From a virus, in IMG/VR virus record IMGVR_UViG_3300025646_000006: a stretch of DNA of 38,347 nucleotides; one strand, written 5' to 3'. Below are positions 128-37,306 of this stretch, piece after piece. Each line of letters begins with the position of its first letter. The stretch's first letter is position 1. The notes under the pieces were generated by a model. It was not told where the DNA came from, did no database searches, and worked only from the letters and a program-made list of their open reading frames with translations. The position numbers and the translations under genes were made by a program.

Positions 128-1223
128 TCGTCCGATTGACCCCGGCCAGTCCGCCCTTGAGTTCACGCGAGCGATGGCTGACCCCGTGCTTCAGGGCCAG
201 ATTCTTGCATCCGAGCAGATGTATCGTCCGCAATACACGCAGCTTGAACTTGCGGATATTAACACCCTCCTTCAAGGTGGTGGCGGGAATATGGGACTCC
301 TTGGCCTGCAAGACTTGGCCTCGCGTCAAGCCGCTGGTATCGGTCAGGAACTCACAAGCGCACAGCGTGCTGCTGACATTGCTGACGTTGAAGCCCTTGG
401 TGGCCGCGCTACGGCTGCGCTGCGTGCGGCTGACCCGATGCAGCAAGCGATTGTTAATCAGCTTAATGCCCTTGCCGCCCAGCGGTTCGCGGCTACTGGC
501 CAGCTTTCTCCGCAAGAGATGCGTGGCGCACAGCAAGCCGCTCGTCTCGGTGGACTTTCCCGTGGTCGCGTAGGCGACGTTAGCACAGTTGCTTCTGAGG
601 TTCTTAACCGCGAGCAAGCCCTTGCCGCTCGCCGTCAGGAAGCGTTACAAGCTGCTCAGATGGCGTTTGCCGCTAACCAAGCTACCGCCGCTGACCCCTT
701 CCAAGCTATCCTTGGTCGTCCCGCGCAAGCCCCCGGTATGGGCATGGCTTCTACGCAGTTCGCTGCTGGCCTTGCTGGTCAGCCCCTTGGCCCGAACCTC
801 TTTGACCCGAACGCCGGTATTAACCTCGCGCTTCAGCAAAATGCTAACCTGGCAAATTATCAGTCTAGCCTGTATGGTGCTCAGGCCGGTTACGCTGGTG
901 CTACAAATCAGGGCCGTGGTGCCATGATTGGCGGCATTGTTGGTGGCCTTGGTGCTCTTGGTGGTGGCATTGCTGGTGGCATTGGTGCCGCCGCCGGTTG
1001 TTGGGTAGCCCGTGAGGTCTTCGGTAACGAGAATCCGATGTGGCTCTTGTTCCGTCAGTGGCTGTTTGAGAACTCCCCTGACTGGTTCTTTAACCTTTAC
1101 ATTAAACACGGCGAGAAGTTCGCTCAGTTCATTTCGGACAAGCCGCTTATCAAGTGGGCTATCCGCAAGTGGATGACGGGTATCGTTGAGCGTAAGTTCG
1201 CCGCTAACCCCGCTTTCATCTAA
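87..1223 (+). CDS. Virion-associated protein with a C-terminal glycine zipper (putative internal/ejection protein)
   Basis: ATG ORF of 378 aa, Ala/Gln/Gly-rich. It has the GxxxG run GAMIGGIVGGLGALGGGIAGGIGAAAG followed by a Trp/Phe-rich tail (CWVAREVFGNENPMWLLFRQWLF). It sits in the distal block of the late arm. Function is inferred from position and composition only. Confidence 0.4.
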   Translation: MGSKVSMPTPPPAPRPIDPGQSALEFTRAMADPVLQGQILASEQMYRPQYTQLELADINTLLQGGGGNMGLLGLQDLASRQAAGIGQELTSAQRAADIADVEALGGRATAALRAADPMQQAIVNQLNALAAQRFAATGQLSPQEMRGAQQAARLGGLSRGRVGDVSTVASEVLNREQALAARRQEALQAAQMAFAANQATAADPFQAILGRPAQAPGMGMASTQFAAGLAGQPLGPNLFDPNAGINLALQQNANLANYQSSLYGAQAGYAGATNQGRGAMIGGIVGGLGALGGGIAGGIGAAAGCWVAREVFGNENPMWLLFRQWLFENSPDWFFNLYIKHGEKFAQFISDKPLIKWAIRKWMTGIVERKFAANPAFI

Positions 1224-2821
1224 TGGCTTACGGATTCGGCACAGGCGTTCAAGCAGGACTTGGCGCAACAGATTACTCTAACTACCTCCGTGGTGCTCTC
1301 TCTGGGGCGCAGATGGAGGCGCAGGGGACTGCCGCTATCGGGCAAGGCATCCAGAACGCCCTTAGTTCTATCGGCGTTGGCGTGCAGAAATACATGAAGA
1401 ACAAGGAGGAGAAGCTTCTTAATAAGGAAGCAACTGACATTATTTCTCCGATGATAGATAGTCCCTTTGTTCGTAAGGCATTAAATATTCCAGAGAATGC
1501 AACGCGAGAAGACATTGATAAAATTGTAATGAAACAGGTAAGGGTGTTTGGCGCGGCCAATGCGTTTAAACTTGTTGATGAGGCAAGGAAGTCTGCTGCG
1601 TTTCAAGTTGGCGTTGGTGCTATTCCCCAAACGATTACGGAAACAGTTGAAGAAAAGGTTCCAACATTTCTTACTCCAGACGTAAATATTTCTGCGCCAA
1701 CCTCGTTCTTGATGAACGCTCCCCAGCCGTCCGTTGAGGACTTCATGCAGACGGGAAAGATTACGCCTCAAGCCCCAGCCATGGCGATTGACATGGTCAG
1801 CAAGCAGCCTGCTGCCCCCGCCGCTGCGCCTGAGGCACCAGCGATTAAACCTGTTCCCAAGAACATTGAGCAATACTTTGCTTTTAACGCGCAAACTGGA
1901 AGCCTTGTCCCGACAAGAAGGCTTGAGCAGGATACGCTTGCGGTTACGTCTGACTTTCAAAATCTAGAGAAAGAAAAGGAGCGGATTAATTCTATACTTA
2001 AAAGCGGATATAAGAGCACTAATGTTGGTGTTTCACCAACAGGTTCTCCCAACATCATAACCTCTCAACTTAGCGGAGAGGATATTCAGTCGTATAATCA
2101 ACAACTTTCCAGCATTGAACAGCAACAAGAACCGCTAAAGAATAAGTTAATTGAGTTTGCTAACGTTCGCCAGTCTGCTGCTGATTTCGGAAAGCAACCT
2201 GACAAGAAGCCTAGTATTGAGGAAACGGCGTCTAATGTGATTGACCGCTCGCTACGCTTTGCAGAGGAGGTTAACCTTGACCCAGTTGACAAGAATCAAT
2301 GGCTGCAAATGAAGACCGTCCTCAAGGACATCCCGCGCAAGGCTACTGACGGAGAAAAGATTGCGGCCTTCGTTAAGGCTTACGGAGAGATTGCTCCGAT
2401 TGACTCTAGCGTTTACTTCAAGATGAAGCAACTGTTCGATACCACTCCGGTGATTACGGACCTCGGTGGCGGCAATCAGCTTGTTACGGTTGGCAACCAA
2501 AGCTTTTTGATTAGGGCCGACGAAGTGAAACCAATGTCAGCTAGTGACCGTAGGCTTAATAACCAAGAGGGGTATGCGCAACTCTTGATACTTGCAAAAA
2601 ATATGGGGGTAGACGAATTTATCGCCAAGCATCCTCCGCTTTATAATAAGCTAGAACAGCTGCACGTTTTATATGGAGATAGAAATTCATTCACTAATAG
2701 TATATTTCCACTCCGGCAAGCCATTGCCGCACTCTCCGAACAACCAGCAACAAATGTCACCGCAACGACTAGTGGAAACAATGTTCGCGCCGCTGCTAAT
2801 AGGGTTCTTGAACAACAATAA
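1223..2821 (+). CDS. Hypothetical virion protein (late operon, 532 aa)
   Basis: ATG overlaps the upstream stop (TAATG). It lies between two other large late-arm proteins. No enzymatic motif recognised. Confidence 0.4.
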   Translation: MAYGFGTGVQAGLGATDYSNYLRGALSGAQMEAQGTAAIGQGIQNALSSIGVGVQKYMKNKEEKLLNKEATDIISPMIDSPFVRKALNIPENATREDIDKIVMKQVRVFGAANAFKLVDEARKSAAFQVGVGAIPQTITETVEEKVPTFLTPDVNISAPTSFLMNAPQPSVEDFMQTGKITPQAPAMAIDMVSKQPAAPAAAPEAPAIKPVPKNIEQYFAFNAQTGSLVPTRRLEQDTLAVTSDFQNLEKEKERINSILKSGYKSTNVGVSPTGSPNIITSQLSGEDIQSYNQQLSSIEQQQEPLKNKLIEFANVRQSAADFGKQPDKKPSIEETASNVIDRSLRFAEEVNLDPVDKNQWLQMKTVLKDIPRKATDGEKIAAFVKAYGEIAPIDSSVYFKMKQLFDTTPVITDLGGGNQLVTVGNQSFLIRADEVKPMSASDRRLNNQEGYAQLLILAKNMGVDEFIAKHPPLYNKLEQLHVLYGDRNSFTNSIFPLRQAIAALSEQPATNVTATTSGNNVRAAANRVLEQQ

Positions 2822-8502: not shown

Positions 8503-8680
8503 CGTCGGCTTCTTTCGTGTAGTCCGCAACCTGAGCGAGCAAGACGAGAGCCTCTGCCCCCACCTTCATCCGCTCAAGGCTTTTGAAAAAGGCGACCTCA
8601 TCGCCGTCTCGGTATGCTTCCTCGGCATCCCGAAGCAGCGCGTTAGTCACTTGTTTGATTTGCTCGTTAGTATCTTTCAT
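8495..8680 (-). CDS. Hypothetical protein (61 aa, acidic, helical)
   Basis: ATG ORF packed between the HNH and HTH genes with short overlaps on both sides. Confidence 0.4.
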   Translation of the reverse strand: MKDTNEQIKQVTNALLRDAEEAYRDGDEVAFFKSLERMKVGAEALVLLAQVADYTKEADDV

Positions 8681-8972
8681 TTGTAATCCTCAAAATCCAG
8701 TTGTTTTCCTCGGCCCAGGCTGGGTTGTTATGAATATAGTTATGGCAAAAGCGGCAGACTGCAACGAAAATCGTCGTGTCGCATAGCTTCCCGCCGCGCC
8801 CCAAGGGGAGACGGTGATGAATGTCTATTGCTTTGTTCGTTTCGCATATCTCACAGATAGGTCTTTTCTTTATATGGCCGCTCTTGAGCTTGCGGTATTC
8901 CTTTAGTTCTTCGGCACGCTTAGACGACACGCGGTTAAGCGGTGTCTTACGTTTCAGCGGTGAGCGTTTCAT
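8667..8972 (-). CDS. HNH endonuclease
   Basis: CEICETNKAIDIHHRLPLGRGG...CRFCHNYIHNNP gives the Cys pairs plus the HNH His/Asn pattern. The ATG at 8972 overlaps the methyltransferase stop (ATGA), so it is preferred over the track start at 8990. Confidence 0.8.
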   Translation of the reverse strand: MKRSPLKRKTPLNRVSSKRAEELKEYRKLKSGHIKKRPICEICETNKAIDIHHRLPLGRGGKLCDTTIFVAVCRFCHNYIHNNPAWAEENNWILRITNERY

Positions 8973-9828
8973 TTTGATAGAAGTTCCCATGCGAGTGCAG
9001 CCACCGCCGGGACTTGTCCGTTTCCAATGGCTTTAAGTCTGTCCACCCTAGCGGCCACCCCATTAGCCACTCGACCCACACCGGATTTAGGGGCATCGGC
9101 CGGGTCGGTTGTCCACCATGCGCCTGACTGGTTAGAGTTGGGGTTTTCCGAGTAAATTCTGCTGGATATGCTGCCTCCTTTGCATTGTGACACGTTGGCG
9201 TCGCCCACTCTTTTTTGCGTGATTTCTTTAATTTCGGTCGGGTCGGATACCCGCGAATCCTTGGGTGATTGTTGAGTCCCACTTGTCCATAGTTGGCGCA
9301 AGCTGGAATCTTTGTTGCCTCGGCTACTGTTGGCGTCGGCCATGGTTCCGACAATCCACATCCTGTCCCGCTTATGAGGTGCTCCGGCATGGTGCGCTCC
9401 GAGCACTCCCCATCGCGCATCATACCCCATTTCGGCAAGGTCTTTGAGAACCGTTGCGAGTCCTCTTGTTCTGAGCAAAGGACTGTTTTCGATGAAAGCA
9501 AATCTTGGTCGAACCTCACCAATAATCCGCGCCATGTGCCGCCACATTCCGCTGCGACTTCCTTCGATTCCTGCGCCTTTTCCTGCGGAGCTGATGTCTT
9601 GGCAGGGAAATCCTCCAGAAACGACATCAACACGGCCTCGCCATGGTCGTCCATCAAAGGTTTGAACGTCATCCCAAATTGGGAAAGGCGGGAGAACGCC
9701 TTCATTTTGTCGGGCGCACAATACGCTTGCGGGATAAGGTTCCCACTCGACGGCGCAGACTGTTCTCCATCCAAGGAGTTTGCCTCCAAGTATTCCTCCA
9801 CCAGCACCTGCGAATAAAGCCAGCTCAT
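8947..9828 (-). CDS. Alternative-frame ORF (293 codons) covering the whole methyltransferase gene; possible overprinted gene
   Basis: Stop-free on the same strand, in the +1 frame relative to the MTase. Its ATG is 4 nt downstream of the MTase ATG (ATGAATG). The translation contains WPTPTVAEATK, WATPTCHNAKE and LNPVWVEWLMGWPLGWTDL. See findings. Confidence 0.3.
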   Translation of the reverse strand: MSWLYSQVLVEEYLEANSLDGEQSAPSSGNLIPQAYCAPDKMKAFSRLSQFGMTFKPLMDDHGEAVLMSFLEDFPAKTSAPQEKAQESKEVAAECGGTWRGLLVRFDQDLLSSKTVLCSEQEDSQRFSKTLPKWGMMRDGECSERTMPEHLISGTGCGLSEPWPTPTVAEATKIPACANYGQVGLNNHPRIRGYPTRPKLKKSRKKEWATPTCHNAKEAAYPAEFTRKTPTLTSQAHGGQPTRPMPLNPVWVEWLMGWPLGWTDLKPLETDKSRRWLHSHGNFYQNETLTAET

Positions 9829-9832
9829 TCAT
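8969..9832 (-). CDS. DNA (cytosine-5)-methyltransferase
   Basis: Motif I FAGAGGG, motif IV GGFPCQDIS, motif VI ENS, motif VIII HKRDRMWIVG, motif X LKAIGNGQVPAVA. An AAGGA-type SD lies upstream of the ATG. Confidence 0.9.
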   Translation of the reverse strand: MNELALFAGAGGGILGGKLLGWRTVCAVEWEPYPASVLCARQNEGVLPPFPIWDDVQTFDGRPWRGRVDVVSGGFPCQDISSAGKGAGIEGSRSGMWRHMARIIGEVRPRFAFIENSPLLRTRGLATVLKDLAEMGYDARWGVLGAHHAGAPHKRDRMWIVGTMADANSSRGNKDSSLRQLWTSGTQQSPKDSRVSDPTEIKEITQKRVGDANVSQCKGGSISSRIYSENPNSNQSGAWWTTDPADAPKSGVGRVANGVAARVDRLKAIGNGQVPAVAALAWELLSK

Positions 9833-9845
9833 TTTTCCTTTCTTA

Positions 9846-22629: not shown

Positions 22630-24712
22630 CACGAGCGAGGAGAAGTCTCTTACATTTGCCGCGAAGGAACCGAACGTAATGGTTCTTCAGAAAGCATACG
22701 ACGACACGCTGGCGGACCTAGAGCCTTATTTCCAGCAATGCCGCCAGAATTACGATGACCGTAATAACATCTGGCCGGGGAAAACCCGTGACCTTCGCAA
22801 GCACGGCTCTGACGCTTTCCCGTGGGATGGCGCGTCTGACTCCGAGGCTCATGTTATTGACGAGCGCATTAACAGCTACGTCTCCTTGCTCATGTCCTCC
22901 ATGATGCGTGCGAACATTCGTGCGTATCCCGTGGAGTTCGGTGACATGGCGCGTGCTCGCGTTGTCTCCTCGTTCCTGAAGTGGATGGTCAGCAGCTACA
23001 TTCCTCGCTTTAAGAAAGAGATGGAGTCTGCTGCAAATCACTTGCTTGAGCGCGGTATCGCCGTGACTTACGTTGGCTGGCAGCGAGAAGACCGCACTTA
23101 CCTCCAGCGTCTTGACCTTCAGCAGCTTGCTCAGGTTGACCCGCAGCTTGCTCAGGCCGTAATTGACGGCTCGGCTGACGACCAGATTATTGCTATGCTT
23201 CGTTCGGTGTATCCCTCGGTTACGGATGCCCGTGCTAAGAAAGCCCTGAAGGACTTGCGCAAAAAGGGCATTGCTGAGATTCCTGTTAGCCGCCGCCAAG
23301 TGGACTGCCCCTTGGTTCAGTCCCTTACGCCTGATGGCGACTTCTTCTTCCCGTCTTACGCCACCGACCCGCAGCGTGCGCCTTATTGCTTCTGGCGGAC
23401 TTACTTCACAGCCCAAGAGCTAAAGAACAAAGTCGCCACCGAAGGATGGGATGCCGACTGGGTGGATTACGTTATTGAGCATTACCGGGGCGTGAACATT
23501 GACACGATTGGTCAGGAGAACAACACCCGGAAGTCTGTCCTTTGGGACGACATGGTTTACGAGGCGGACGAGCTGATTGAGATTGTTTACGGCTATCAGC
23601 GTCTCGTGGACCCGATTGACAATTCCGAGGGCATTTACTGCACGGTTTTTCATCGGGAGCTTTCATCGAAGATTAGTGAGATTAAGCCTTACGCCAAGTT
23701 CGAGCTTATGAACGGTTACGAGGATTATCCCGTAATTGTAACTCGTCTTAGCGAAGCCTCTAAGCGTCTGTATGATGTTCAGAGCATGGCCGACGTTCTG
23801 CGCGGTATTCAGTGGCAGGTGAAGATTGAGCGCGATAGCCGCATTGACCGTAACTCAATGGCTACGATGCCGCCGATTATGCACCCGGTTGGTAACGCTC
23901 CGAGTGATTGGGGGCCGGGACGGTTTGTTCCGTATCGCCGTGGTGGCGAGTTCCAGTTCGGTCCTACGCCGCAGTATAACCCCGGCTCCGTGGAAATGGA
24001 GCGCACGCTTCTTGACGTTGCTGACCGTCTCGTTGGCCTTAGCGCGAATGACCCGGCTTCCGCTACGAAGCGTCAGTTTATCCTAGATAAGTTCTTGTTG
24101 CACGTTCAGGACGTTATCAAGATGGCGTTCAAGTGCTACCAGCGGTTCGGCCCTGACCAAGTGTTCTTCCGTGTTACCGGCGTCGTTGACCCGATGCGCT
24201 TCGACAAGGGGAACCCTGACGAGAATTACGACATTGTTATCGGTTATGATGTCCTTAACTCCGACCCCGAAACGCAGGAGACAAAGTTGAACCAGCTTGT
24301 CAGCCTCATTCAACTGGACCGTAATGGACGTATTAACCCCGACGCTCTCATTGACATTGCGGCTAACGCTATCGACCCGATTGCTGCTGACGCGGTGCTG
24401 CAACCGATTGAGCAAGCGCAACAGCAAATCGTCCGGTTTGTTACGGATGACCTTACTAAGATTTTTGCTGGCATCGAAATGCCTGCTCGACCGAATGGCG
24501 CACAGATTGCGCTTCAAGTTATTCAGCAGTATGCTTCACAACCAGACGTTGCACAGCGTTTGCAGCAAGACGAAGCATTTGCGGCACGACTCCAGAAGTA
24601 TGCAGCGCAATACACCTTCCAAATGCAGCAAGCGCAGAACGCTCAGATTGGTCGTATTGGGACTCAGCCTGCTGCTATGGGTGACGTTAATACTCAAAGC
24701 ATGGGGGCTTGA
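22622..24712 (+). CDS. Portal protein
   Basis: 696 aa, lying between the terminase and the scaffold/capsid genes. Gln/Ala-rich C-terminus. Called from size and synteny. Confidence 0.7.
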   Translation: MSNTSEEKSLTFAAKEPNVMVLQKAYDDTLADLEPYFQQCRQNYDDRNNIWPGKTRDLRKHGSDAFPWDGASDSEAHVIDERINSYVSLLMSSMMRANIRAYPVEFGDMARARVVSSFLKWMVSSYIPRFKKEMESAANHLLERGIAVTYVGWQREDRTYLQRLDLQQLAQVDPQLAQAVIDGSADDQIIAMLRSVYPSVTDARAKKALKDLRKKGIAEIPVSRRQVDCPLVQSLTPDGDFFFPSYATDPQRAPYCFWRTYFTAQELKNKVATEGWDADWVDYVIEHYRGVNIDTIGQENNTRKSVLWDDMVYEADELIEIVYGYQRLVDPIDNSEGIYCTVFHRELSSKISEIKPYAKFELMNGYEDYPVIVTRLSEASKRLYDVQSMADVLRGIQWQVKIERDSRIDRNSMATMPPIMHPVGNAPSDWGPGRFVPYRRGGEFQFGPTPQYNPGSVEMERTLLDVADRLVGLSANDPASATKRQFILDKFLLHVQDVIKMAFKCYQRFGPDQVFFRVTGVVDPMRFDKGNPDENYDIVIGYDVLNSDPETQETKLNQLVSLIQLDRNGRINPDALIDIAANAIDPIAADAVLQPIEQAQQQIVRFVTDDLTKIFAGIEMPARPNGAQIALQVIQQYASQPDVAQRLQQDEAFAARLQKYAAQYTFQMQQAQNAQIGRIGTQPAAMGDVNTQSMGA

Positions 24713-25899: not shown

Positions 25900-27039
25900 A
25901 TGTCTAATGAAGTTCTAACACCTAACGCTGCGGGTGAAAAAAGTGCAGTGGAAAGCTCAGACAACCTTGCGTTCGGGATGTATGCACTCCGACGCCGGGG
26001 TGGTAAGACGGAAGTTCAGGGGGAGCCTAAAATCTCCACCGAAGTAATTAACGTCAAGCCAGCAGAACCGCAACCAAAGGCGGAGCAGGAGGATAAGCAG
26101 GCCGGGGAAGCCCAGCCTGAGTCTCGGAACGACACCCAAGCGGAGGCCGTTACCGAGAACGAACCTGTAAGCCAAGAGGAAGCAGATGTTCTTTCTAAGA
26201 AGGAAATCGACCTAGAGTCCATGTCAGAGGCAGAACTGCGGGAGCTTGCCGACAAGCTCGGTAGCCGCGCAGTAGCCCGATTCGGTGAGCTTACCGCAAA
26301 ACGTAAGCAAGCCGAGGAACAGCTTAATGCCCTGAAACAAGAACTAGCGAATCGGGAATCGCAAAAGAATCCCTTGGAGACTAAGCGGATTGAAAACAAT
26401 CCGTTTGCCGACATCGACAGCGTTGAGAAATTGCAGGGCAAGGCCCGCGAAATCGACGAGGCTATCGAATGGGCCGAAGACGTTCTCTGGACTAACGAGC
26501 ATCTGGCAGCAGATGACATCGTTGCGACAGTGGACGGCAAAGAGATTACCAAGGCTCAGGTGCGTAAAGTTATGCGCGATGCTCAGAAGGCACGCAAAGA
26601 CTTTCTCCCGGCGCAGCTCTCTGAACTCCAAGCCCGTCAGCAACGTGCCGCCGCCAAGCAACAGCTTAGTGAGGCAATTCGGACGGAACTGGATTGGATG
26701 CAAGGCGAAGATAACGATACCCGCAGGCAGTTCGAGATTCTGCGCGAAAGCCCGCTTTTGAAGCAGGCTATCAAAGCAGTCCCGGACCTTGAGCCTTACA
26801 TGGAATACATGGTGGCTCACGCGGCTAATTCGATTTATGGGCGCAAGCCTGTGAACGAAACCCGGCCTAGTGCGCGGATTAACCCTCCTTCGATTCAGGT
26901 TAGTTCTTCTGCTCAAAGCGAGCAGCCAGAACCCCGAGCGGCTAAGGCCGTGAAAGACATTCAGCAACGGTTCTCTACGTCAGGTGCTACGCAGGACTTC
27001 ATCGCTCTCCGCGCCCTTCAACACTCTAAACGTAAATAA
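25900..27039 (+). CDS. Scaffolding protein
   Basis: 379 aa from the ATG at 25900 (the track start at 25891 is TTG). Highly charged Glu/Lys/Gln/Ala-rich helical sequence immediately upstream of the capsid gene. Confidence 0.55.
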   Translation: MSNEVLTPNAAGEKSAVESSDNLAFGMYALRRRGGKTEVQGEPKISTEVINVKPAEPQPKAEQEDKQAGEAQPESRNDTQAEAVTENEPVSQEEADVLSKKEIDLESMSEAELRELADKLGSRAVARFGELTAKRKQAEEQLNALKQELANRESQKNPLETKRIENNPFADIDSVEKLQGKAREIDEAIEWAEDVLWTNEHLAADDIVATVDGKEITKAQVRKVMRDAQKARKDFLPAQLSELQARQQRAAAKQQLSEAIRTELDWMQGEDNDTRRQFEILRESPLLKQAIKAVPDLEPYMEYMVAHAANSIYGRKPVNETRPSARINPPSIQVSSSAQSEQPEPRAAKAVKDIQQRFSTSGATQDFIALRALQHSKRK

Positions 27040-27058
27040 CTCTTAACTACCGCCTAAC

Positions 27059-28042
27059 ATGGCTTTTTCTAACACTTACGACACAACCAATCCGGGTTCG
27101 GCTGTCTCCAATCGTGAAGACCTGACCGACATCCTGACCATCCTCGCCCCCGAGGAAACTCCCGTGCTTTCGTCCGCTCCTAAGAGCAAGGCGACAGGGA
27201 CATTCGTTGAATGGACCGTTGACTCCCTCGCTTCCCCGGTGACATCCGGCGTGGCCGAAGGTGCCGACGTTACATCGTTCACCGACAAATTCAGTGGCCG
27301 CGCTCGTATCGGCAACTACGTCCAGAAGTTCCGCCGCGACTTCATGGTGTCTGACCTCCAGAACGCCGTTGAGTCCGTTGGTCCCGCGAAGATTGCTCAG
27401 GCTGAAGCCAAGGCCGTCCGCGAAATCAAGCGCGACGTTGAGGCTACCCTGTGCTCCGCGAATGACCGCTCGTCTGAAGATGGTGCTGGCACCGTTTATG
27501 GCCTCCGTGGTCTGGGCGACTGGATTGACTCGGCTGGTCCGGCTGACGTTCCGTCCGCTTACCGCACGCCTGCTGGTTCGATTCACTCGTCCGGTGCGCT
27601 GACTGAGAGCGGTTTCAATGACCTGATTACGTCGATTTATCGCGTCACAGGCACAACGAACAACCTGACGCTCGTGGCCGACACAGCCCTGCGTCGCGTT
27701 ATCGCTGACTATGCTCGCACATCGGGCAGCACAAACACGGTTTACCGCCAGATTACTCAGGCGGCTGATTCCAAGACCATCAAGCTCTCGGTCGAGATGT
27801 ATGAGTCCGACCACGGCATGGTGAGCATTGTGAACATGAACCCGGACTGCGCTCCTGACACCACAAACAAGGACACTGGCTACCTCGTCAACCCGGATTA
27901 CTACGGCGTTGCGGAGCTGATTGGCCTTGGCTCGACCCGTCTGCCGAACCTCGGCGGTGGTGAGCGTGGTTATGTGGACACAACCCTCACGCTGTTGGTC
28001 AACCATCCCGGTGCCCACGGCAAAATCACAGCCCTCAGCTAA
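27059..28042 (+). CDS. Major capsid protein
   Basis: 327 aa. The N-terminal SNREDLTDILTILAPEETPVLSS...ATGTFVEWTVDSLA pattern matches what I recall for a major capsid family (DUF5309-like, from memory). It follows the scaffold and is followed by a strong terminator. Confidence 0.8.
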   Translation: MAFSNTYDTTNPGSAVSNREDLTDILTILAPEETPVLSSAPKSKATGTFVEWTVDSLASPVTSGVAEGADVTSFTDKFSGRARIGNYVQKFRRDFMVSDLQNAVESVGPAKIAQAEAKAVREIKRDVEATLCSANDRSSEDGAGTVYGLRGLGDWIDSAGPADVPSAYRTPAGSIHSSGALTESGFNDLITSIYRVTGTTNNLTLVADTALRRVIADYARTSGSTNTVYRQITQAADSKTIKLSVEMYESDHGMVSIVNMNPDCAPDTTNKDTGYLVNPDYYGVAELIGLGSTRLPNLGGGERGYVDTTLTLLVNHPGAHGKITALS

Positions 28043-35128: not shown

Positions 35129-37306
35129 ATGCCACGGTATAGCAATTACGGCTCCCTTGATAACCTGATGGTTGATGAGGGCGATGTCGCGTTCACTAGA
35201 GTTAACGCACGCCTTCGCCCAGACCAGCTTCAACCTTCAGAGATTGCCATGTCGTCTAACGGACGCATGGATATTAACGGGGCGTGGCAGACCCGCAAGG
35301 GCCACCAGAACCTAGGCTCCTCGCTGGCTACGGATGAAGCGTCTTTGACGCTGCCGTTTTACGTTTACGCTAACACAACGTCTAGCGGCTCCAGCCGAAG
35401 CGGAGACACAATTACGATTACGTTCTCCTCGGCGCACCCATTCATTGACCAGACACTCGGCTACGTCTCTGGTATTACAGGACTTACACCTGACCCTAAT
35501 GGCAACCGACTTATCACTGTCGTTGATTCTGTTACAATCCAAATTACTGTCTCGGGCCTCTCGGGAACCATCGGCGGAACCGCAGTCGTCGGCGCACCTA
35601 TCCTTAATGATAACGTCATTAACGCGGTTTACGGCTCGTGCTTGTTCTCTGACCCGGCTTCCCAAAACGAGGAATACATCGTAATTGCTACGAACAGTAT
35701 TGCGTATGCGGTAAACCTGAGAACCGGCGTATCTACTCCAATCGAATACCCGGCTGGTGAGTCGCTGGAAGCTGATGTTAATATGGTTCAGGCGTTTAAT
35801 TACGTCTTCATTTTCCGAGATGGTCTGACAGCCTTGGAGTGGGATGGAGACTTTACTGGAACCCCGGCTTTCCAGCTGGTCGCAAATGGCGACTACACCC
35901 AGCCGGTTTACCTTGATAACTCAAATAACACAAACTGCGTGGACGGCGAGGTGACGGTCACTCATTTAGCGGGTCACGGATTAGTGGTTGGCGATGTAAT
36001 TTACGTTGTTGATAAAGACGGCACAGACCTGACCGAGAAGACGAAAGGTTACTCAATCGCAACAGTCTCTGACCCATATACGTTTACGTTTTACGCTGAC
36101 GTTCACGACCACAGTAACGGCAGCGTTGTTTACGTTAAGAAGCTATCCGTTGGTGCTGGCTTTAGCCATATGCCTGCCCCGCCTTGGGCGGTTTACCACC
36201 AGCGTCGTCTTTGGATGCCGTTCCTTTACACGACGACCGGCAGCTCTGGCTCGCCTACGATTACTAGCCGCGACGTATCGGACGAAATCATTGCGTCTGA
36301 CGTTCTCGACCAAGACACTTACGACCAGATTTACGCTAATTACCGCATCGCTTCAGGTGGCGCGGATTACGTCGTAGCCCTTCAGCCGTTCACCGAGGAC
36401 AACCTCGTGGTGTTTAACCGTAACACGATTCACCTTGTGCGTGGTGTAAGCGGTGCCTTGGAGTCCACTACGGTCCAAGAGGTTACCCGCGAAGTGGGCT
36501 GTCTGGCTCGTCGCTCGGTGGTTCAGGTCGGCAACCAGATTCTTTTCCTCTCGGATAACGGCGTTTATGCCATGACCTTCGAGGACTTGTATAACCTGCG
36601 CGGTGCCACAATTCCCCTTTCCGAGCCGATTAACCCCCTTATCAAGCGGATTAACAAGGATTACGCGAAGAACTGCGTAGCCATTTACCACGATAACCGT
36701 TATTACATCGCCGTCCCCCTCGACAAATCGACCGAGAATAATGCCATCTTGGTTTACAACTTCCTGAACCAAGGCTGGGAATCCTTGGATACCGTTGACG
36801 CTCCCGGCTGGAACATCCGTAACCTTATCCGCGCTGGCGCAGGCTCTCTGAACAAGCTGTATGCCGTGAATTCTTTCGGCGGCATCCATATCCTTGAGGA
36901 CCGTGTGGATAATAACGACCGTCTCATTACCCAGATTGGGCAGGCTGCTACGACTTACCAGATTCAGTCTTACATGACCACGCGGCAATACACCGCTGGG
37001 ACAATGGACCGAAAGCGATATAACTCCTTCGAGCTTCAGGCCGAAAGCTCTGAGAGTAACGACTCTGACATTGACATTTCTTTTGAGTCAGAGAACCCAG
37101 ACTCGCTTAACCCGCTTGATTCGCTTTCTGACCTTCTAGTTGGTAATTTGAAGAGCGGCGAGGACGCCTCTGTTCGTGGCCGCATCGGTAACATCCGTGG
37201 ATACGGTGGCCAGTTCACGCTTACACCAACACTTGGCCGTCCCAAGATTCGGGCGGTCAAAGTAACCTCTCAACTTACTGACCTTAACATTAGCTCTAAG
37301 CAATAA
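35129..37306 (+). CDS. Large tail structural protein (725 aa; nozzle / tail-tube-B-like by size and position)
   Basis: Beta-rich with an acidic Ser/Asp C-terminal segment. It lies between the basic-protein cluster and the second fibre gene. No motif recognised. Confidence 0.45.
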   Translation: MPRYSNYGSLDNLMVDEGDVAFTRVNARLRPDQLQPSEIAMSSNGRMDINGAWQTRKGHQNLGSSLATDEASLTLPFYVYANTTSSGSSRSGDTITITFSSAHPFIDQTLGYVSGITGLTPDPNGNRLITVVDSVTIQITVSGLSGTIGGTAVVGAPILNDNVINAVYGSCLFSDPASQNEEYIVIATNSIAYAVNLRTGVSTPIEYPAGESLEADVNMVQAFNYVFIFRDGLTALEWDGDFTGTPAFQLVANGDYTQPVYLDNSNNTNCVDGEVTVTHLAGHGLVVGDVIYVVDKDGTDLTEKTKGYSIATVSDPYTFTFYADVHDHSNGSVVYVKKLSVGAGFSHMPAPPWAVYHQRRLWMPFLYTTTGSSGSPTITSRDVSDEIIASDVLDQDTYDQIYANYRIASGGADYVVALQPFTEDNLVVFNRNTIHLVRGVSGALESTTVQEVTREVGCLARRSVVQVGNQILFLSDNGVYAMTFEDLYNLRGATIPLSEPINPLIKRINKDYAKNCVAIYHDNRYYIAVPLDKSTENNAILVYNFLNQGWESLDTVDAPGWNIRNLIRAGAGSLNKLYAVNSFGGIHILEDRVDNNDRLITQIGQAATTYQIQSYMTTRQYTAGTMDRKRYNSFELQAESSESNDSDIDISFESENPDSLNPLDSLSDLLVGNLKSGEDASVRGRIGNIRGYGGQFTLTPTLGRPKIRAVKVTSQLTDLNISSKQ

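What the first reader, a model, noticed from the sequence alone, without database searches (positions are those of the whole stretch)
8947..9832. Methyltransferase locus is fully open in two same-strand frames with ATGs 4 nt apart, and both translations look like real protein
On the minus strand, AAAGGAAAAATGAATGAGCTGG carries two ATGs (9832 and 9828) behind one AAGGA element.

Frame A (8969..9832, 287 aa) has C5-MTase motifs I (FAGAGGG), IV (GGFPCQDIS), VI (ENS), VIII (HKRDRMWIVG) and X (LKAIGNGQVP). I cannot find a motif IX (LMGFP..W type), and residues about 166-250 are Ser/Asn/Gln-rich low complexity.

Frame B (8947..9828, 293 aa) has no stop across the whole gene. Exactly where frame A is low complexity, it reads WPTPTVAEATK ... 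WATPTCHNAKE ... LNPVWVEWLMGWPLGWTDLKPLE. These are the WPTP boxes and the EWLMG-P-GWT box that I associate (from memory) with the variable/motif-IX part of phage-type C5 MTases.

A naive expectation for 293 stop-free codons at about 50% GC is (61/64)^293, of order 1e-6. This genome does also show long shadow ORFs elsewhere, so composition is a live alternative.

Three readings are possible. (i) Two proteins are made from one mRNA, perhaps a two-subunit MTase. As I recall, M.AquI is assembled from two polypeptides split in the variable region. (ii) Ribosomal frameshifting joins parts of A and B. (iii) It is a compositional accident. The HNH gene start overlaps the frame A stop (ATGA at 8969-8972), which argues that frame A is read to its end.
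Basis: partly seen in the sequence, partly recalled or inferred. Interest (0 to 1): 0.8.

Follow-up and report, generated by a model that had tools for sequence, protein, structure and literature searches.

The report
Phage methyltransferase encoded across two frames
This phage DNA cytosine methyltransferase gene is read in two overlapping frames from neighbouring start codons, one frame carrying the catalytic domain and the other the DNA-recognition domain, and related phages share this layout although databases annotate it as one ordinary gene.

Summary

**Observation.** On the minus strand, frame A (9832..8969, 287 aa) and frame B (9828..8947, 293 aa) are both open, with ATGs 4 nt apart behind one Shine-Dalgarno element.

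**Family-wide pattern.**
- 178 of 220 distinct related phage loci have the same layout.
- Frame B has no stop across the N-half in 77/77 loci (3.4 expected).
- Frame A has no stop across the middle in 95/96 loci (3.3 expected).
- The third sense frame and the antisense frames are full of stops.

**Selection switches frames A, then B, then A.**
- Motifs I-VIII are selected in frame A.
- The WPTP-box target-recognition region and motif IX are selected in frame B.
- Pre-X and motif X are selected in frame A.
- That equals the large domain in A and the small domain in B.

**Best explanation.** Two full-length polypeptides are made from paired starts and assemble into one enzyme. The precedent is M.EcoHK31I, whose β chain lies in another frame inside the α gene. 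A double ribosomal frameshift is disfavoured: junction 1 has no shift site, and neither frame would then need to stay open throughout.

**Limits.** Translation, assembly and activity are inferred, not shown.

**Novelty.** A new variant of a known kind: complete overlap, β carrying the whole small domain, and a widespread family.

The parts
9836..9840 (-). Shine-Dalgarno element AAGGA shared by both start codons
   Evidence: Sequence. Across 89 loci the best anti-SD pairing ends a median of 3 nt before A's start and 7 nt before B's ATG.
8969..9832 (-). Frame A ORF (287 aa plus stop), the proposed alpha chain: motifs I-VIII, filler linker, pre-X and motif X
   Evidence: PF00145 E=3.7e-33. phrog_363 E=2e-68. 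94 of the 120 best database homologues follow this frame to the end.
8947..9828 (-). Frame B ORF (293 aa plus stop), the proposed beta chain: leader, WPTP-box recognition region, motif IX, short tail
   Evidence: The exact protein is already in public data as P0121, with 1552 relatives. phrog_1008 E=1e-22. B's first ATG is at +4 in 157/177 loci, and its N-terminus reads MSWL or MSWH in 159/177.
9347..9832 (-). N-half, selected in frame A (residues 1-162, motifs I, IV, VI, VIII). The same DNA in frame B is the leader (B residues 1-161)
   Evidence: Variability is highest at A's third codon position. Frame B has 0 stops here in 77/77 loci against 3.4 expected. At saturating distances the leader is no more conserved than shuffles predict.
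9040..9345 (-). Middle, selected in frame B (B residues 162-263: PWPTP ... WATPT ... LNPVWVEWLMGWPLGWT). This is the small domain (recognition region plus motif IX). In frame A the same DNA is a low-complexity linker
   Evidence: B's third position is the most variable, while B1 and B2 are conserved at the WPTP boxes and motif IX. 56% identity to residues 300-421 of the single-chain relative P0244, E=1e-43. Frame A has 0 stops here in 95/96 loci against 3.3 expected. The frame A model has pLDDT 29-48 here.
9040..9090 (-). Motif IX block in frame B (LNPVWVEWLMGWPLGWT), overprinted on frame A's pre-X segment (GVGRVANGVAARVD)
   Evidence: This is the only confident part of the frame B model (pLDDT 74-90). 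The offset from IX to X is a fixed 44 nt in 178 loci.
8972..9118 (-). Pre-X and motif X in frame A (residues 239-287: WWTTDPADAPKSGVGRVANGVAARVDRLKAIGNGQVPAVAALAWELLSK)
   Evidence: From AIGNG onward, A's third position is again the most variable. 54% identity to P0244 residues 421-466, directly after its motif IX in the same chain, E=1e-12.
9031..9036 (-). UUA_AAG in frame B register, a possible -1 shift site at the B-to-A junction (probably incidental)
   Evidence: In register in 99/110 loci. A_AAG is a known bacterial -1 shift motif (PMC5009743). But the sequence is forced by A=RLKA together with B=DLKP. There is no downstream structure (z=-0.1). It is absent in L008, L066, L068 and in S9-5 and PS-1 (inferred from their translations).
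8667..8972 (-). Downstream HNH endonuclease gene. Its ATG overlaps frame A's stop (ATGA), and frame B ends 22 nt inside it
   Evidence: phrog_740 and phrog_15522, HNH endonuclease.

Best explanation
The locus encodes a DNA cytosine-5 methyltransferase as two polypeptides. They are translated in two completely overlapping same-strand frames from paired start codons behind one Shine-Dalgarno element.

**Frame A, the alpha chain.** It supplies the large catalytic and AdoMet-binding domain. That is motifs I-VIII, then about 75-100 residues of unselected low-complexity linker (the out-of-frame reading of the small domain), then pre-X and motif X.

**Frame B, the beta chain.** It supplies a 161-residue leader whose sequence is not detectably selected (the out-of-frame reading of the catalytic half). 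The small domain follows: the WPTP-box target-recognition region and motif IX.

The two chains assemble into the active enzyme, as in the naturally heterodimeric M.EcoHK31I.

**Shown:** both frames are open, stops are actively avoided, the selected frame switches A|B|A, paired starts are conserved, and the two halves are homologous to consecutive parts of single chains in relatives.

**Inferred:** that both chains are actually made, that they associate, and that both are needed for methylation.
For: 1. **Reciprocal stop avoidance.** Frame B has 0 stops in the N-half in 77/77 loci against 3.4 expected. Frame A has 0 stops in the middle in 95/96 loci against 3.3 expected. The third sense frame shows no avoidance (8.9 observed against 7.0 expected; 7.1 against 6.3), and antisense frames carry 4.6-9.1 stops per gene.
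2. **The selected frame switches.** Codon-position variability is highest at A3 up to motif VIII, at B3 across both WPTP boxes and LNPxWVEWLMGWPLGWT, and at A3 again from AIGNGQVP onward.
4. **Paired starts are conserved.** B's ATG is at +4 in 157/177 loci and B starts MSWL or MSWH in 159/177. Variants keep one start per frame, 13 nt apart or in swapped order, as in ATGTCATGG. The SD lies 3 nt from A's start and 7 nt from B's.
5. **Single-chain relatives.** P0244 matches the window's frame B middle at residues 300-421 (E=1e-43) and the frame A tail at residues 421-466 (E=1e-12), one after the other.
6. **In-series relatives behave as predicted.** In four loci where X follows IX in frame B, frame A ends 6-28 codons after motif VIII in three of them. 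Each frame is open only as far as a selected segment requires.
7. **Distant cultured phages share the layout.** Salmonella S9-5 and Pseudomonas PS-1 have both complete frames, and Mycobacterium Che9d gp80 keeps the frame B recognition region and motif IX behind a shorter leader.
8. **Experimental precedent.** M.EcoHK31I beta is encoded entirely in another frame within the alpha gene. Alpha carries I-VIII and X, beta carries IX, and both are required. In vitro, deleting 42 or more N-terminal residues of beta abolished activity. In cells, beta lacking 42-50 residues kept partial activity, and zinc-finger fusions tolerated deletions up to 65-67 residues (PMC2836561).
Against: - There is no direct evidence of translation, of association, or of a requirement for both chains.
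- An engineered exact domain split ([X + I-VIII] plus [TRD + IX]) of M.MpeI and M.SssI gave no activity (PMC5944983).
- Twelve 'fused' loci place the N-half in frame with part of the recognition region and motif IX, and leave motif X in the -1 frame with no obvious start. That fits a -1 shift better than a separate chain.
- UUA_AAG sits at the B-to-A junction in 90% of close relatives.
- Calling LNPxWVEWLMGWPLGWT 'motif IX' rests on its position and resemblance. Pfam PF00145 did not align it.
- Monomer AlphaFold models were of low confidence, with mean pLDDT about 52.
- It is unclear why beta should carry a 161-residue unselected leader rather than start internally.
Confidence: 0.66

Rival explanations
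1. One chain is made by two programmed ribosomal frameshifts. Ribosomes start in frame A, shift +1 after motif VIII into frame B, read the recognition region and motif IX, then shift -1 at UUA_AAG back into frame A for motif X. The product is a conventional A-B-A methyltransferase.
For: The selection pattern is exactly A|B|A, and the spliced protein has the canonical motif order. UUA_AAG is in register in 99/110 loci, and A_AAG, including (G_UU)A_AAG, is a documented bacterial -1 shift site (PMC5009743). Fused loci would need only the -1 shift.
Against: Junction 1 has no conserved slippery or stall site. Its spacing varies from -5 to +214 nt, and in 19 loci B's WPTP codons overlap A's IWIVA codons. 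Frameshifting explains neither why frame B is stop-free for 161 codons upstream of junction 1, nor why frame A is stop-free across the middle, nor why B has its own conserved ATG. UUA_AAG is forced by the dual constraint A=RLKA and B=DLKP. It is missing in L008, L066, L068 and, by inference from their translations, in S9-5 and PS-1. No downstream structure is present (z=-0.1).
Confidence: 0.12
2. A hybrid model. Beta is translated from its own ATG, and a fraction of those ribosomes shift -1 at UUA_AAG, so that beta also gains motif X (an M.AquI-like beta). Frame A then matters only for motifs I-VIII.
For: In-series relatives (L152, L156, L218, L236; P0244, P0389, P0321) carry leader, recognition region, IX and X in one frame B chain, while frame A carries only I-VIII. 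So an M.AquI-like partition exists in this clade. The shift motif is present.
Against: Frame A is actively kept open for about 100 codons between motif VIII and motif X in 95/96 window-type loci. That is pointless if motif X reaches the enzyme through beta. In the in-series loci, where X really is in frame B, frame A stops early. There is no stimulatory structure.
Confidence: 0.08
3. Frame A alone is the enzyme. Frame B is a separate overprinted protein with another role, such as a DNA-binding regulator or anti-defence factor, or it is not functional.
For: Public annotation treats frame A as the methyltransferase and frame B ORFs as hypothetical proteins. Frame B gave no Pfam or NCBIfam hit.
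Against: Frame A has no motif IX and no selected recognition region, and its middle is unselected filler. Frame B's selected part is homologous to the segment lying between the leader and motif X in single-chain relatives. Some database proteins fuse the N-half directly to it.
Confidence: 0.08
4. The pattern is a compositional accident, a sequencing error, or a decaying pseudogene.
For: The window has several other long shadow ORFs. The window's own openness is only about 1e-3 unusual.
Against: 178 of 220 independent loci from many metagenomes and from cultured phages show the same two frames with the same junctions. Stop avoidance is specific to these two frames. Purifying selection acts in each frame in turn.
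Confidence: 0.01

Closest known systems
M.EcoHK31I (E. coli HK31; Lee, Kam & Shaw 1995, as described in PMC2836561 and PMC3404938)
   Same: It is a cytosine-5 methyltransferase made of two polypeptides. Beta is encoded in a different reading frame inside the alpha gene. [quoted passage not shown] Both are needed for activity. Beta tolerates loss of part of its N-terminus: partial activity in cells with 42-50 residues removed, and up to 65-67 residues when fused to a zinc finger.
   Different: In the window, beta overlaps alpha from start to stop, with start codons 4 nt apart, rather than lying inside alpha. Beta carries the whole small domain (WPTP-box recognition region plus IX), whereas the TRD of M.EcoHK31I is assigned to alpha. 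Motif IX is overprinted on pre-X. The window gene belongs to a phage replication module; no cognate restriction gene was looked for.
M.AquI (Karreman & de Waard 1990, as described in PMC3404938)
   Same: It is a natural two-subunit cytosine-5 methyltransferase split in the variable region. Rare relatives of the window gene (L152, L156, L218, L236) have the same partition: alpha carries I-VIII, and beta carries the recognition region, IX and X.
   Different: In the window, motif X is on the same chain as I-VIII, not on beta. As described there, M.AquI's split leaves part of the variable region on each subunit, whereas here the frames overlap completely.
Conventional single-chain C5 methyltransferases (Pfam PF00145; M.HhaI, M.HaeIII)
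   Same: The N-half has the same motifs I-VIII (PF00145 E=3.7e-33; 10mh_A E=7.5e-13). The overall order I-VIII, TRD, IX, X is the same once frames A, B and A are spliced.
   Different: No single reading frame contains all the parts. TIGR00675 scores 89.6 bits, below its 100.65 cut-off. None of the 220 related loci has all the parts in one frame.
Long same-strand overlapping (overprinted) genes of viruses
   Same: Two proteins come from one stretch of DNA in +1 register. The out-of-frame segments are low-complexity and predicted to be disordered.
   Different: Neither frame is simply 'new'. The selected segments alternate between frames, and both appear to be pieces of one ancestral enzyme.

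Membership tests
C5 DNA methyltransferase (PF00145 / TIGR00675) | N-terminal catalytic half with motifs I (FxGxG), IV (PCQ), VI (ENV/ENS) and VIII (RxR) | tested here: met
   Frame A residues 4-163 match PF00145 at E=3.7e-33. M.HhaI 10mh_A matches at E=7.5e-13 over residues 4-161.
C5 DNA methyltransferase (PF00145 / TIGR00675) | All ten motifs, including TRD and IX, in one polypeptide that reaches the curated full-length score | tested here: not met
   Frame A lacks motif IX. TIGR00675 scores 89.6 bits against a cut-off of 100.65. Frame B alone has no Pfam or NCBIfam hit. 0 of 220 related loci have IX and X in the N-half's frame.
M.EcoHK31I-type heterodimeric C5 methyltransferase | The beta ORF lies in a different reading frame within the alpha gene | tested here: met
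   Frame B is +1 to frame A and overlaps it completely. This is conserved in 178/220 loci.
M.EcoHK31I-type heterodimeric C5 methyltransferase | Alpha carries motifs I-VIII and X; beta carries motif IX | tested here: met
   The order IX then X in the single-chain relative P0244 comes. The identification of motif IX rests on position and resemblance, not on a profile hit.
M.EcoHK31I-type heterodimeric C5 methyltransferase | Both polypeptides are made and both are required for methylation | not testable with these tools
   Only indirect evidence is available: reciprocal stop avoidance and conserved paired starts.
M.EcoHK31I-type heterodimeric C5 methyltransferase | Sequence homology to M.EcoHK31I alpha and beta | not tested
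   The sequence was not obtainable. The 1995 paper is not held, and PMC2836561 has no supplement held as text.
M.AquI-type split | Beta carries IX and X; alpha carries I-VIII only | tested here: not met
   In the window, motif X is in frame A with I-VIII. The feature is met only in four relatives: L152, L156, L218 and L236.
Programmed -1 ribosomal frameshift site | Slippery sequence in register at the junction | tested here: met
   UUA_AAG lies at 9036-9031 and is in register in 99/110 loci. It contains the A_AAG motif (PMC5009743).
Programmed -1 ribosomal frameshift site | Stimulatory downstream structure, and conservation of the site across the family | tested here: not met
   The window's fold gives z=-0.10. 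The site is absent in L008, L066, L068 and L027 and, by inference from their translations, in S9-5 and PS-1, which all keep both frames.
Programmed +1 ribosomal frameshift site | Conserved shift-prone codon with a slow A-site codon at the A-to-B junction | tested here: not met
   The junction varies in sequence and spacing and has no in-frame stop or conserved motif. B's WPTP codons overlap A's motif VIII in 19 loci.

The most novel reading that the evidence does not exclude
The enzyme could be a single A-B-A chain made by two programmed frameshifts of opposite sign within one gene: +1 after motif VIII and -1 at UUA_AAG. Under this reading, the full-length openness of both frames would serve only to avoid abortive termination of ribosomes that fail to shift. 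Two obligatory, opposite-direction recoding events conserved across a large phage gene family would, to my knowledge, be without precedent.
Probability: 0.1. Interest if true: 0.9.

Novelty: new variant of a known kind. Interest (0 to 1): 0.7.

Why it matters
- **A very long conserved same-strand overlap.** If both chains are made, this is an unusually long overlap for a dsDNA phage: about 880 nt, start to stop. It is not a curiosity of one genome. An exhaustive search with frame B's selected half found 6,148 cluster representatives, and cultured Salmonella, Vibrio, Klebsiella, Pseudomonas, Ralstonia and Mycobacterium phages gave near-full-length frame B matches; both frames were read directly in three of them.
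- **An unusual evolutionary arrangement.** Two structural domains of one enzyme are interleaved between frames. About 17 codons (motif IX over pre-X) appear to serve both frames.
- **Systematic mis-annotation.** Pipelines call one frame 'DNA cytosine methyltransferase'. They either drop the other frame or deposit it as 'hypothetical protein'. PHROGs holds the two frames as separate families, 363 and 1008.
- **Consequences for experiments.** Expressing the annotated CDS in a way that disturbs frame B, for example by codon optimisation, would be expected to inactivate the enzyme. This matters for phage epigenetics, anti-restriction studies and methyltransferase engineering.
- **A natural source of heterodimers.** Split-methyltransferase targeting tools have so far drawn on naturally heterodimeric M.EcoHK31I and on artificially bisected enzymes such as M.HhaI and M.SssI. 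This family would give them a large set of natural examples.

Tried and rejected
- **Sequencing or assembly indels** were my first hypothesis after seeing motifs hop A-B-A. I rejected it when 75 or more of 80 independent loci showed the same two open frames.
- **A spliced A-B-A query** gave 100% coverage hits, but these turned out to be two classes of single-ORF proteins following either frame, not conventional enzymes.
- **Pfam and NCBIfam on frame B** gave no hits.
- **AlphaFold2 monomer models** of frames A and B from 61-sequence alignments had mean pLDDT of about 52. They are usable only as weak support for 'filler' regions, so I ran no fold search.
- **Amino-acid selection on the frame B leader.** Some fourfold frame A sites are invariant where B has Trp or Gly. 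However, distant saturated pairs show no excess leader conservation, with z from -0.9 to 0.3. I conclude that only openness is robustly selected, and the invariant sites remain unexplained.
- **Downstream RNA structure at junction 2:** none.
- **Conserved antisense ORF:** rejected.
- **Literature.** Searches for the motif strings EWLMG and WPTPT gave zero papers. General searches on overlapping genes and methyltransferases found nothing about this family. The original M.EcoHK31I and M.AquI papers are not held.
Full report
**1. The observation.** On the minus strand the sequence AAAGGAAAAATGAATGAGCTGG carries two ATGs, at 9832 and 9828, behind AAGGA (9840-9836). Frame A runs 9832..8969 (287 aa) and frame B runs 9828..8947 (293 aa). 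Both are open. Frame A has motifs I, IV, VI, VIII and X but no motif IX. Frame B reads WPTPT … WATPT … LNPVWVEWLMGWPLGWT exactly where frame A is low-complexity. Pfam PF00145 matches frame A's N-half only (residues 4-163 carry the score) and finds nothing in frame B.

**2. Both frames have real counterparts.** I built a spliced A-B-A protein and searched with it. It found 8,000 relatives. The 120 best all share the frame A N-half at 75-99% identity, but they split into two classes by their C-terminal half. About 94 follow frame A to the end, and about 25 follow frame B's middle and tail. Frame B's first 161 residues matched essentially none of these: 1 of 120 (P0091) had a 19-residue match. 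The window DNA therefore encodes both alternative C-halves in overlapping frames.

**3. The layout is a property of the family.**
- In 80 IMG/VR loci, frame +1 is open for exactly 161 codons upstream of the junction and about as far downstream as frame 0. Frame 0 hits an A-type profile and frame +1 a B-type profile.
- With more loci, 178 of 220 distinct loci have motif IX in +1 and motif X in 0, at a fixed 44-nt offset.
- Synonymous shuffles of frame A expect 3.4 stops in frame B's N-half, and 0 are observed in 77/77 loci. Frame +2 shows no avoidance, with 8.9 observed against 7.0 expected.
- Synonymous shuffles of frame B expect 3.3 stops in frame A across the middle, and 0 are observed in 95/96 loci. 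The third frame has 7.1 observed against 6.3 expected.
- Antisense frames carry 4.6-9.1 stops per gene, so the window's 174-aa antisense ORF is incidental.
- tblastn aligns frame B over 96-99% of its length in a single frame in cultured Salmonella (S9-5), Vibrio, Klebsiella, Ralstonia and Pseudomonas (PS-1) phages. Reading both frames confirms two complete ORFs in S9-5 and PS-1. Mycobacteriophage Che9d gp80 keeps the frame B recognition region and motif IX behind a shorter leader. In all three the record annotates only frame A.

**4. Which frame is selected where.**
- Per-codon-position entropy across 76 loci shows the classical third-position signature in frame A for residues 1-160.
- The signature is in frame B for both WPTP boxes and for LNPxWVEWLMGWPLGWT. 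B3 reaches 1.2-1.9 bits while B1 and B2 are near 0.
- It returns to frame A from AIGNGQVP to the end.
- So selection runs A|B|A, which is the canonical order I-VIII | TRD + IX | X.
- In crystal structures the large domain comprises I-VIII and X, and the small domain comprises the TRD and IX (PMC3404938). Frame A therefore holds the large domain and frame B the small domain.
- A single-chain relative, P0244, matches the frame B middle at residues 300-421 (56% identity, E=1e-43). Immediately afterwards it matches the frame A tail at residues 421-466 (54% identity, E=1e-12).
- The two window segments are therefore consecutive parts of one ancestral chain. In the window, motif IX (frame B, 9090-9040) is overprinted on pre-X (frame A).

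**5. Start codons.**
- The context NTGAATGAG(Y)TGG is conserved.
- B's first ATG lies at +4 in 157/177 loci, and B begins MSWL or MSWH in 159/177.
- A's first codon is ATG, GTG or TTG. Where it is TTA or CTT, A starts 9 or 18 nt upstream. In the CTT variant the order is swapped: in ATGTCATGG, B's ATG comes first and still encodes MSWL.
- The SD ends a median of 3 nt before A's start and 7 nt before B's.
- One start per frame, close together behind one SD, is a conserved design.

**6. Junctions and frameshifting.**
- Junction 1 has no conserved shift site. Its spacing ranges from -5 to +214 nt.
- In 19 loci B's WPTP codons overlap A's motif VIII: ATC TGG ATT GTG GCC AAC ACC reads IWIVANT in A and SGLWPTP in B.
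- Junction 2 is GAC UUA AAG in 99/110 loci, and A_AAG is a known -1 site (PMC5009743).
- However, that sequence is forced by requiring A=RLKA and B=DLKP together. There is no downstream structure. L008, L066 and L068 lack the site, as do S9-5 and PS-1 by inference from their translations, yet all keep both frames.
- A frameshift model also leaves the reciprocal stop avoidance and B's own ATG unexplained.

**7. The filler segments.**
- The frame A model is disordered across residues 171-273 (pLDDT 29-48). The frame B model is confident only at residues 245-270. Both rest on shallow alignments and are weak evidence.
- For distant pairs with saturated synonymous sites, the frame B leader is no more conserved than synonymous shuffles predict, with z from -0.9 to 0.3.
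- A few invariant fourfold sites remain unexplained: V114 is GTG in 71/71 loci and G136 is GGG in 76/76.
- The leader is kept open but not detectably selected as protein. M.EcoHK31I beta likewise tolerates substantial N-terminal truncation.

**8. Variants that test the logic.**
- Four loci (L152, L156, L218, L236) have IX and X in series in frame B. In three of them frame A stops 6-28 codons after motif VIII, and frame B is still open from its own ATG in three of the four. This is an M.AquI-like partition. It shows that a frame is kept open only as far as a selected segment requires.
- Twelve 'fused' loci, and about 25 database proteins, join the N-half in frame to part of the recognition region and IX, leaving X in the -1 frame.
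- Some of the fused forms coincide with C10-13 or GGN runs at the junction. These are not explained by the two-chain model and are its main weakness.

**9. Comparison with what is known.**
[quoted passage not shown] Alpha has I-VIII, X and the TRD, beta has IX, and both are required. Internal Met codons can start beta. In vitro, deleting 42 or more N-terminal residues of beta abolished activity. In cells, partial activity persisted with 42-50 residues removed, and zinc-finger fusions tolerated deletions up to 65-67 residues (PMC2836561).
- M.AquI splits I-VIII from IX-X (PMC3404938).
- The window gene works like M.EcoHK31I. It differs in complete overlap with adjacent starts, in beta carrying the whole small domain, and in IX being overprinted on pre-X. 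Homology to M.EcoHK31I could not be tested.
- A caution: engineered exact domain splits of M.MpeI and M.SssI were inactive (PMC5944983).
- I found no paper that describes this family or its motifs.

**10. Verdict.**
- The compositional-accident reading is refuted.
- A two-chain enzyme encoded in two fully overlapping frames is the best explanation (confidence about 0.66). Double frameshifting (0.12) and hybrids are the rivals.
- It is a new variant of a known kind and is widespread: 6,148 cluster representatives match frame B's selected half.
- It is systematically mis-annotated. Frame B ORFs are deposited as hypothetical proteins, including the exact window protein, P0121. PHROGs 363 and 1008 hold the two frames separately. 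RefSeq E. coli prophage copies show one CDS only.

Noticed in passing
L091, L065, L094 (junction 1, about nt 490-530 of each gene); proteins P0007-P0011: A subfamily has a homopolymeric C10-13 tract exactly between motif VIII and the first WPTP box. Depending on tract length, the N-half is either +1 to the recognition region or fused to it in frame (KYSPPPPQWPTP…). This could reflect slippage, phase variation or uncertainty in assembled tract length.
   Followed up: partly
L081, L083-L087, L089, L090, L097, L114, L130: In these 'fused' loci the N-half is in frame with the second WPTP box and motif IX. Frame +1 (leader plus a first WRTP box) stops near nt 586, and motif X lies in the -1 frame with no obvious start. 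They do not fit the two-chain model cleanly and may depend on the UUA_AAG site or be decaying.
   Followed up: partly
window 27047..28018 (-) opposite 27059..28042 (+): A full-length antisense ORF of 323 aa lies opposite the major head protein gene (327 aa; phrog_1328, E=1e-61). The antisense ORF has no PHROG hit. Other long antisense shadow ORFs are at 645..1268, 22718..23416, 26344..26967 and 36353..36988.
   Followed up: partly
window 9293..9817 (+): A 174-aa antisense ORF lies inside the methyltransferase gene. It is not conserved: antisense frames carry 4.6-9.1 stops per gene across 178 loci.
   Followed up: yes
window 8947..8972: The HNH endonuclease ATG overlaps frame A's stop (ATGA at 8972-8969). 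Frame B runs 22 nt further into the HNH gene before its stop at 8949-8947. In most relatives frame B instead stops a few codons before frame A does.
   Followed up: no
Frame A codons 114 and 136 across loci (window about 9493-9491 and 9427-9425): Two fourfold-degenerate frame A codons are invariant where frame B has a Trp or a Gly: V114 is GTG in 71/71 loci and G136 is GGG in 76/76. Yet the leader shows no overall protein-level conservation at long distances. The G136 site lies just upstream of the tandem ATG ATG in frame B (KWGMMRDG), which could be an internal start for a short beta.
   Followed up: partly
L148 (Mycobacteriophage Che9d gp80, NC_004686 45002-45760): Frame B has stops within the first 25 codons and lacks the ATGAATG start. 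An internal ATG near codon 47 would give a shorter leader, yet GSMRNG…WHTPT…NPVWIEWLMGFPPNWTD is preserved in +1. This suggests that beta can start internally in some lineages.
   Followed up: no
Public databases (P0121 and 1552 relatives; phrog_363 and phrog_1008): The exact frame B protein of this window is already deposited as a 'hypothetical protein' on 10 contigs. PHROGs appears to hold the two frames of this gene as two separate 'DNA methyltransferase' families.
   Followed up: partly
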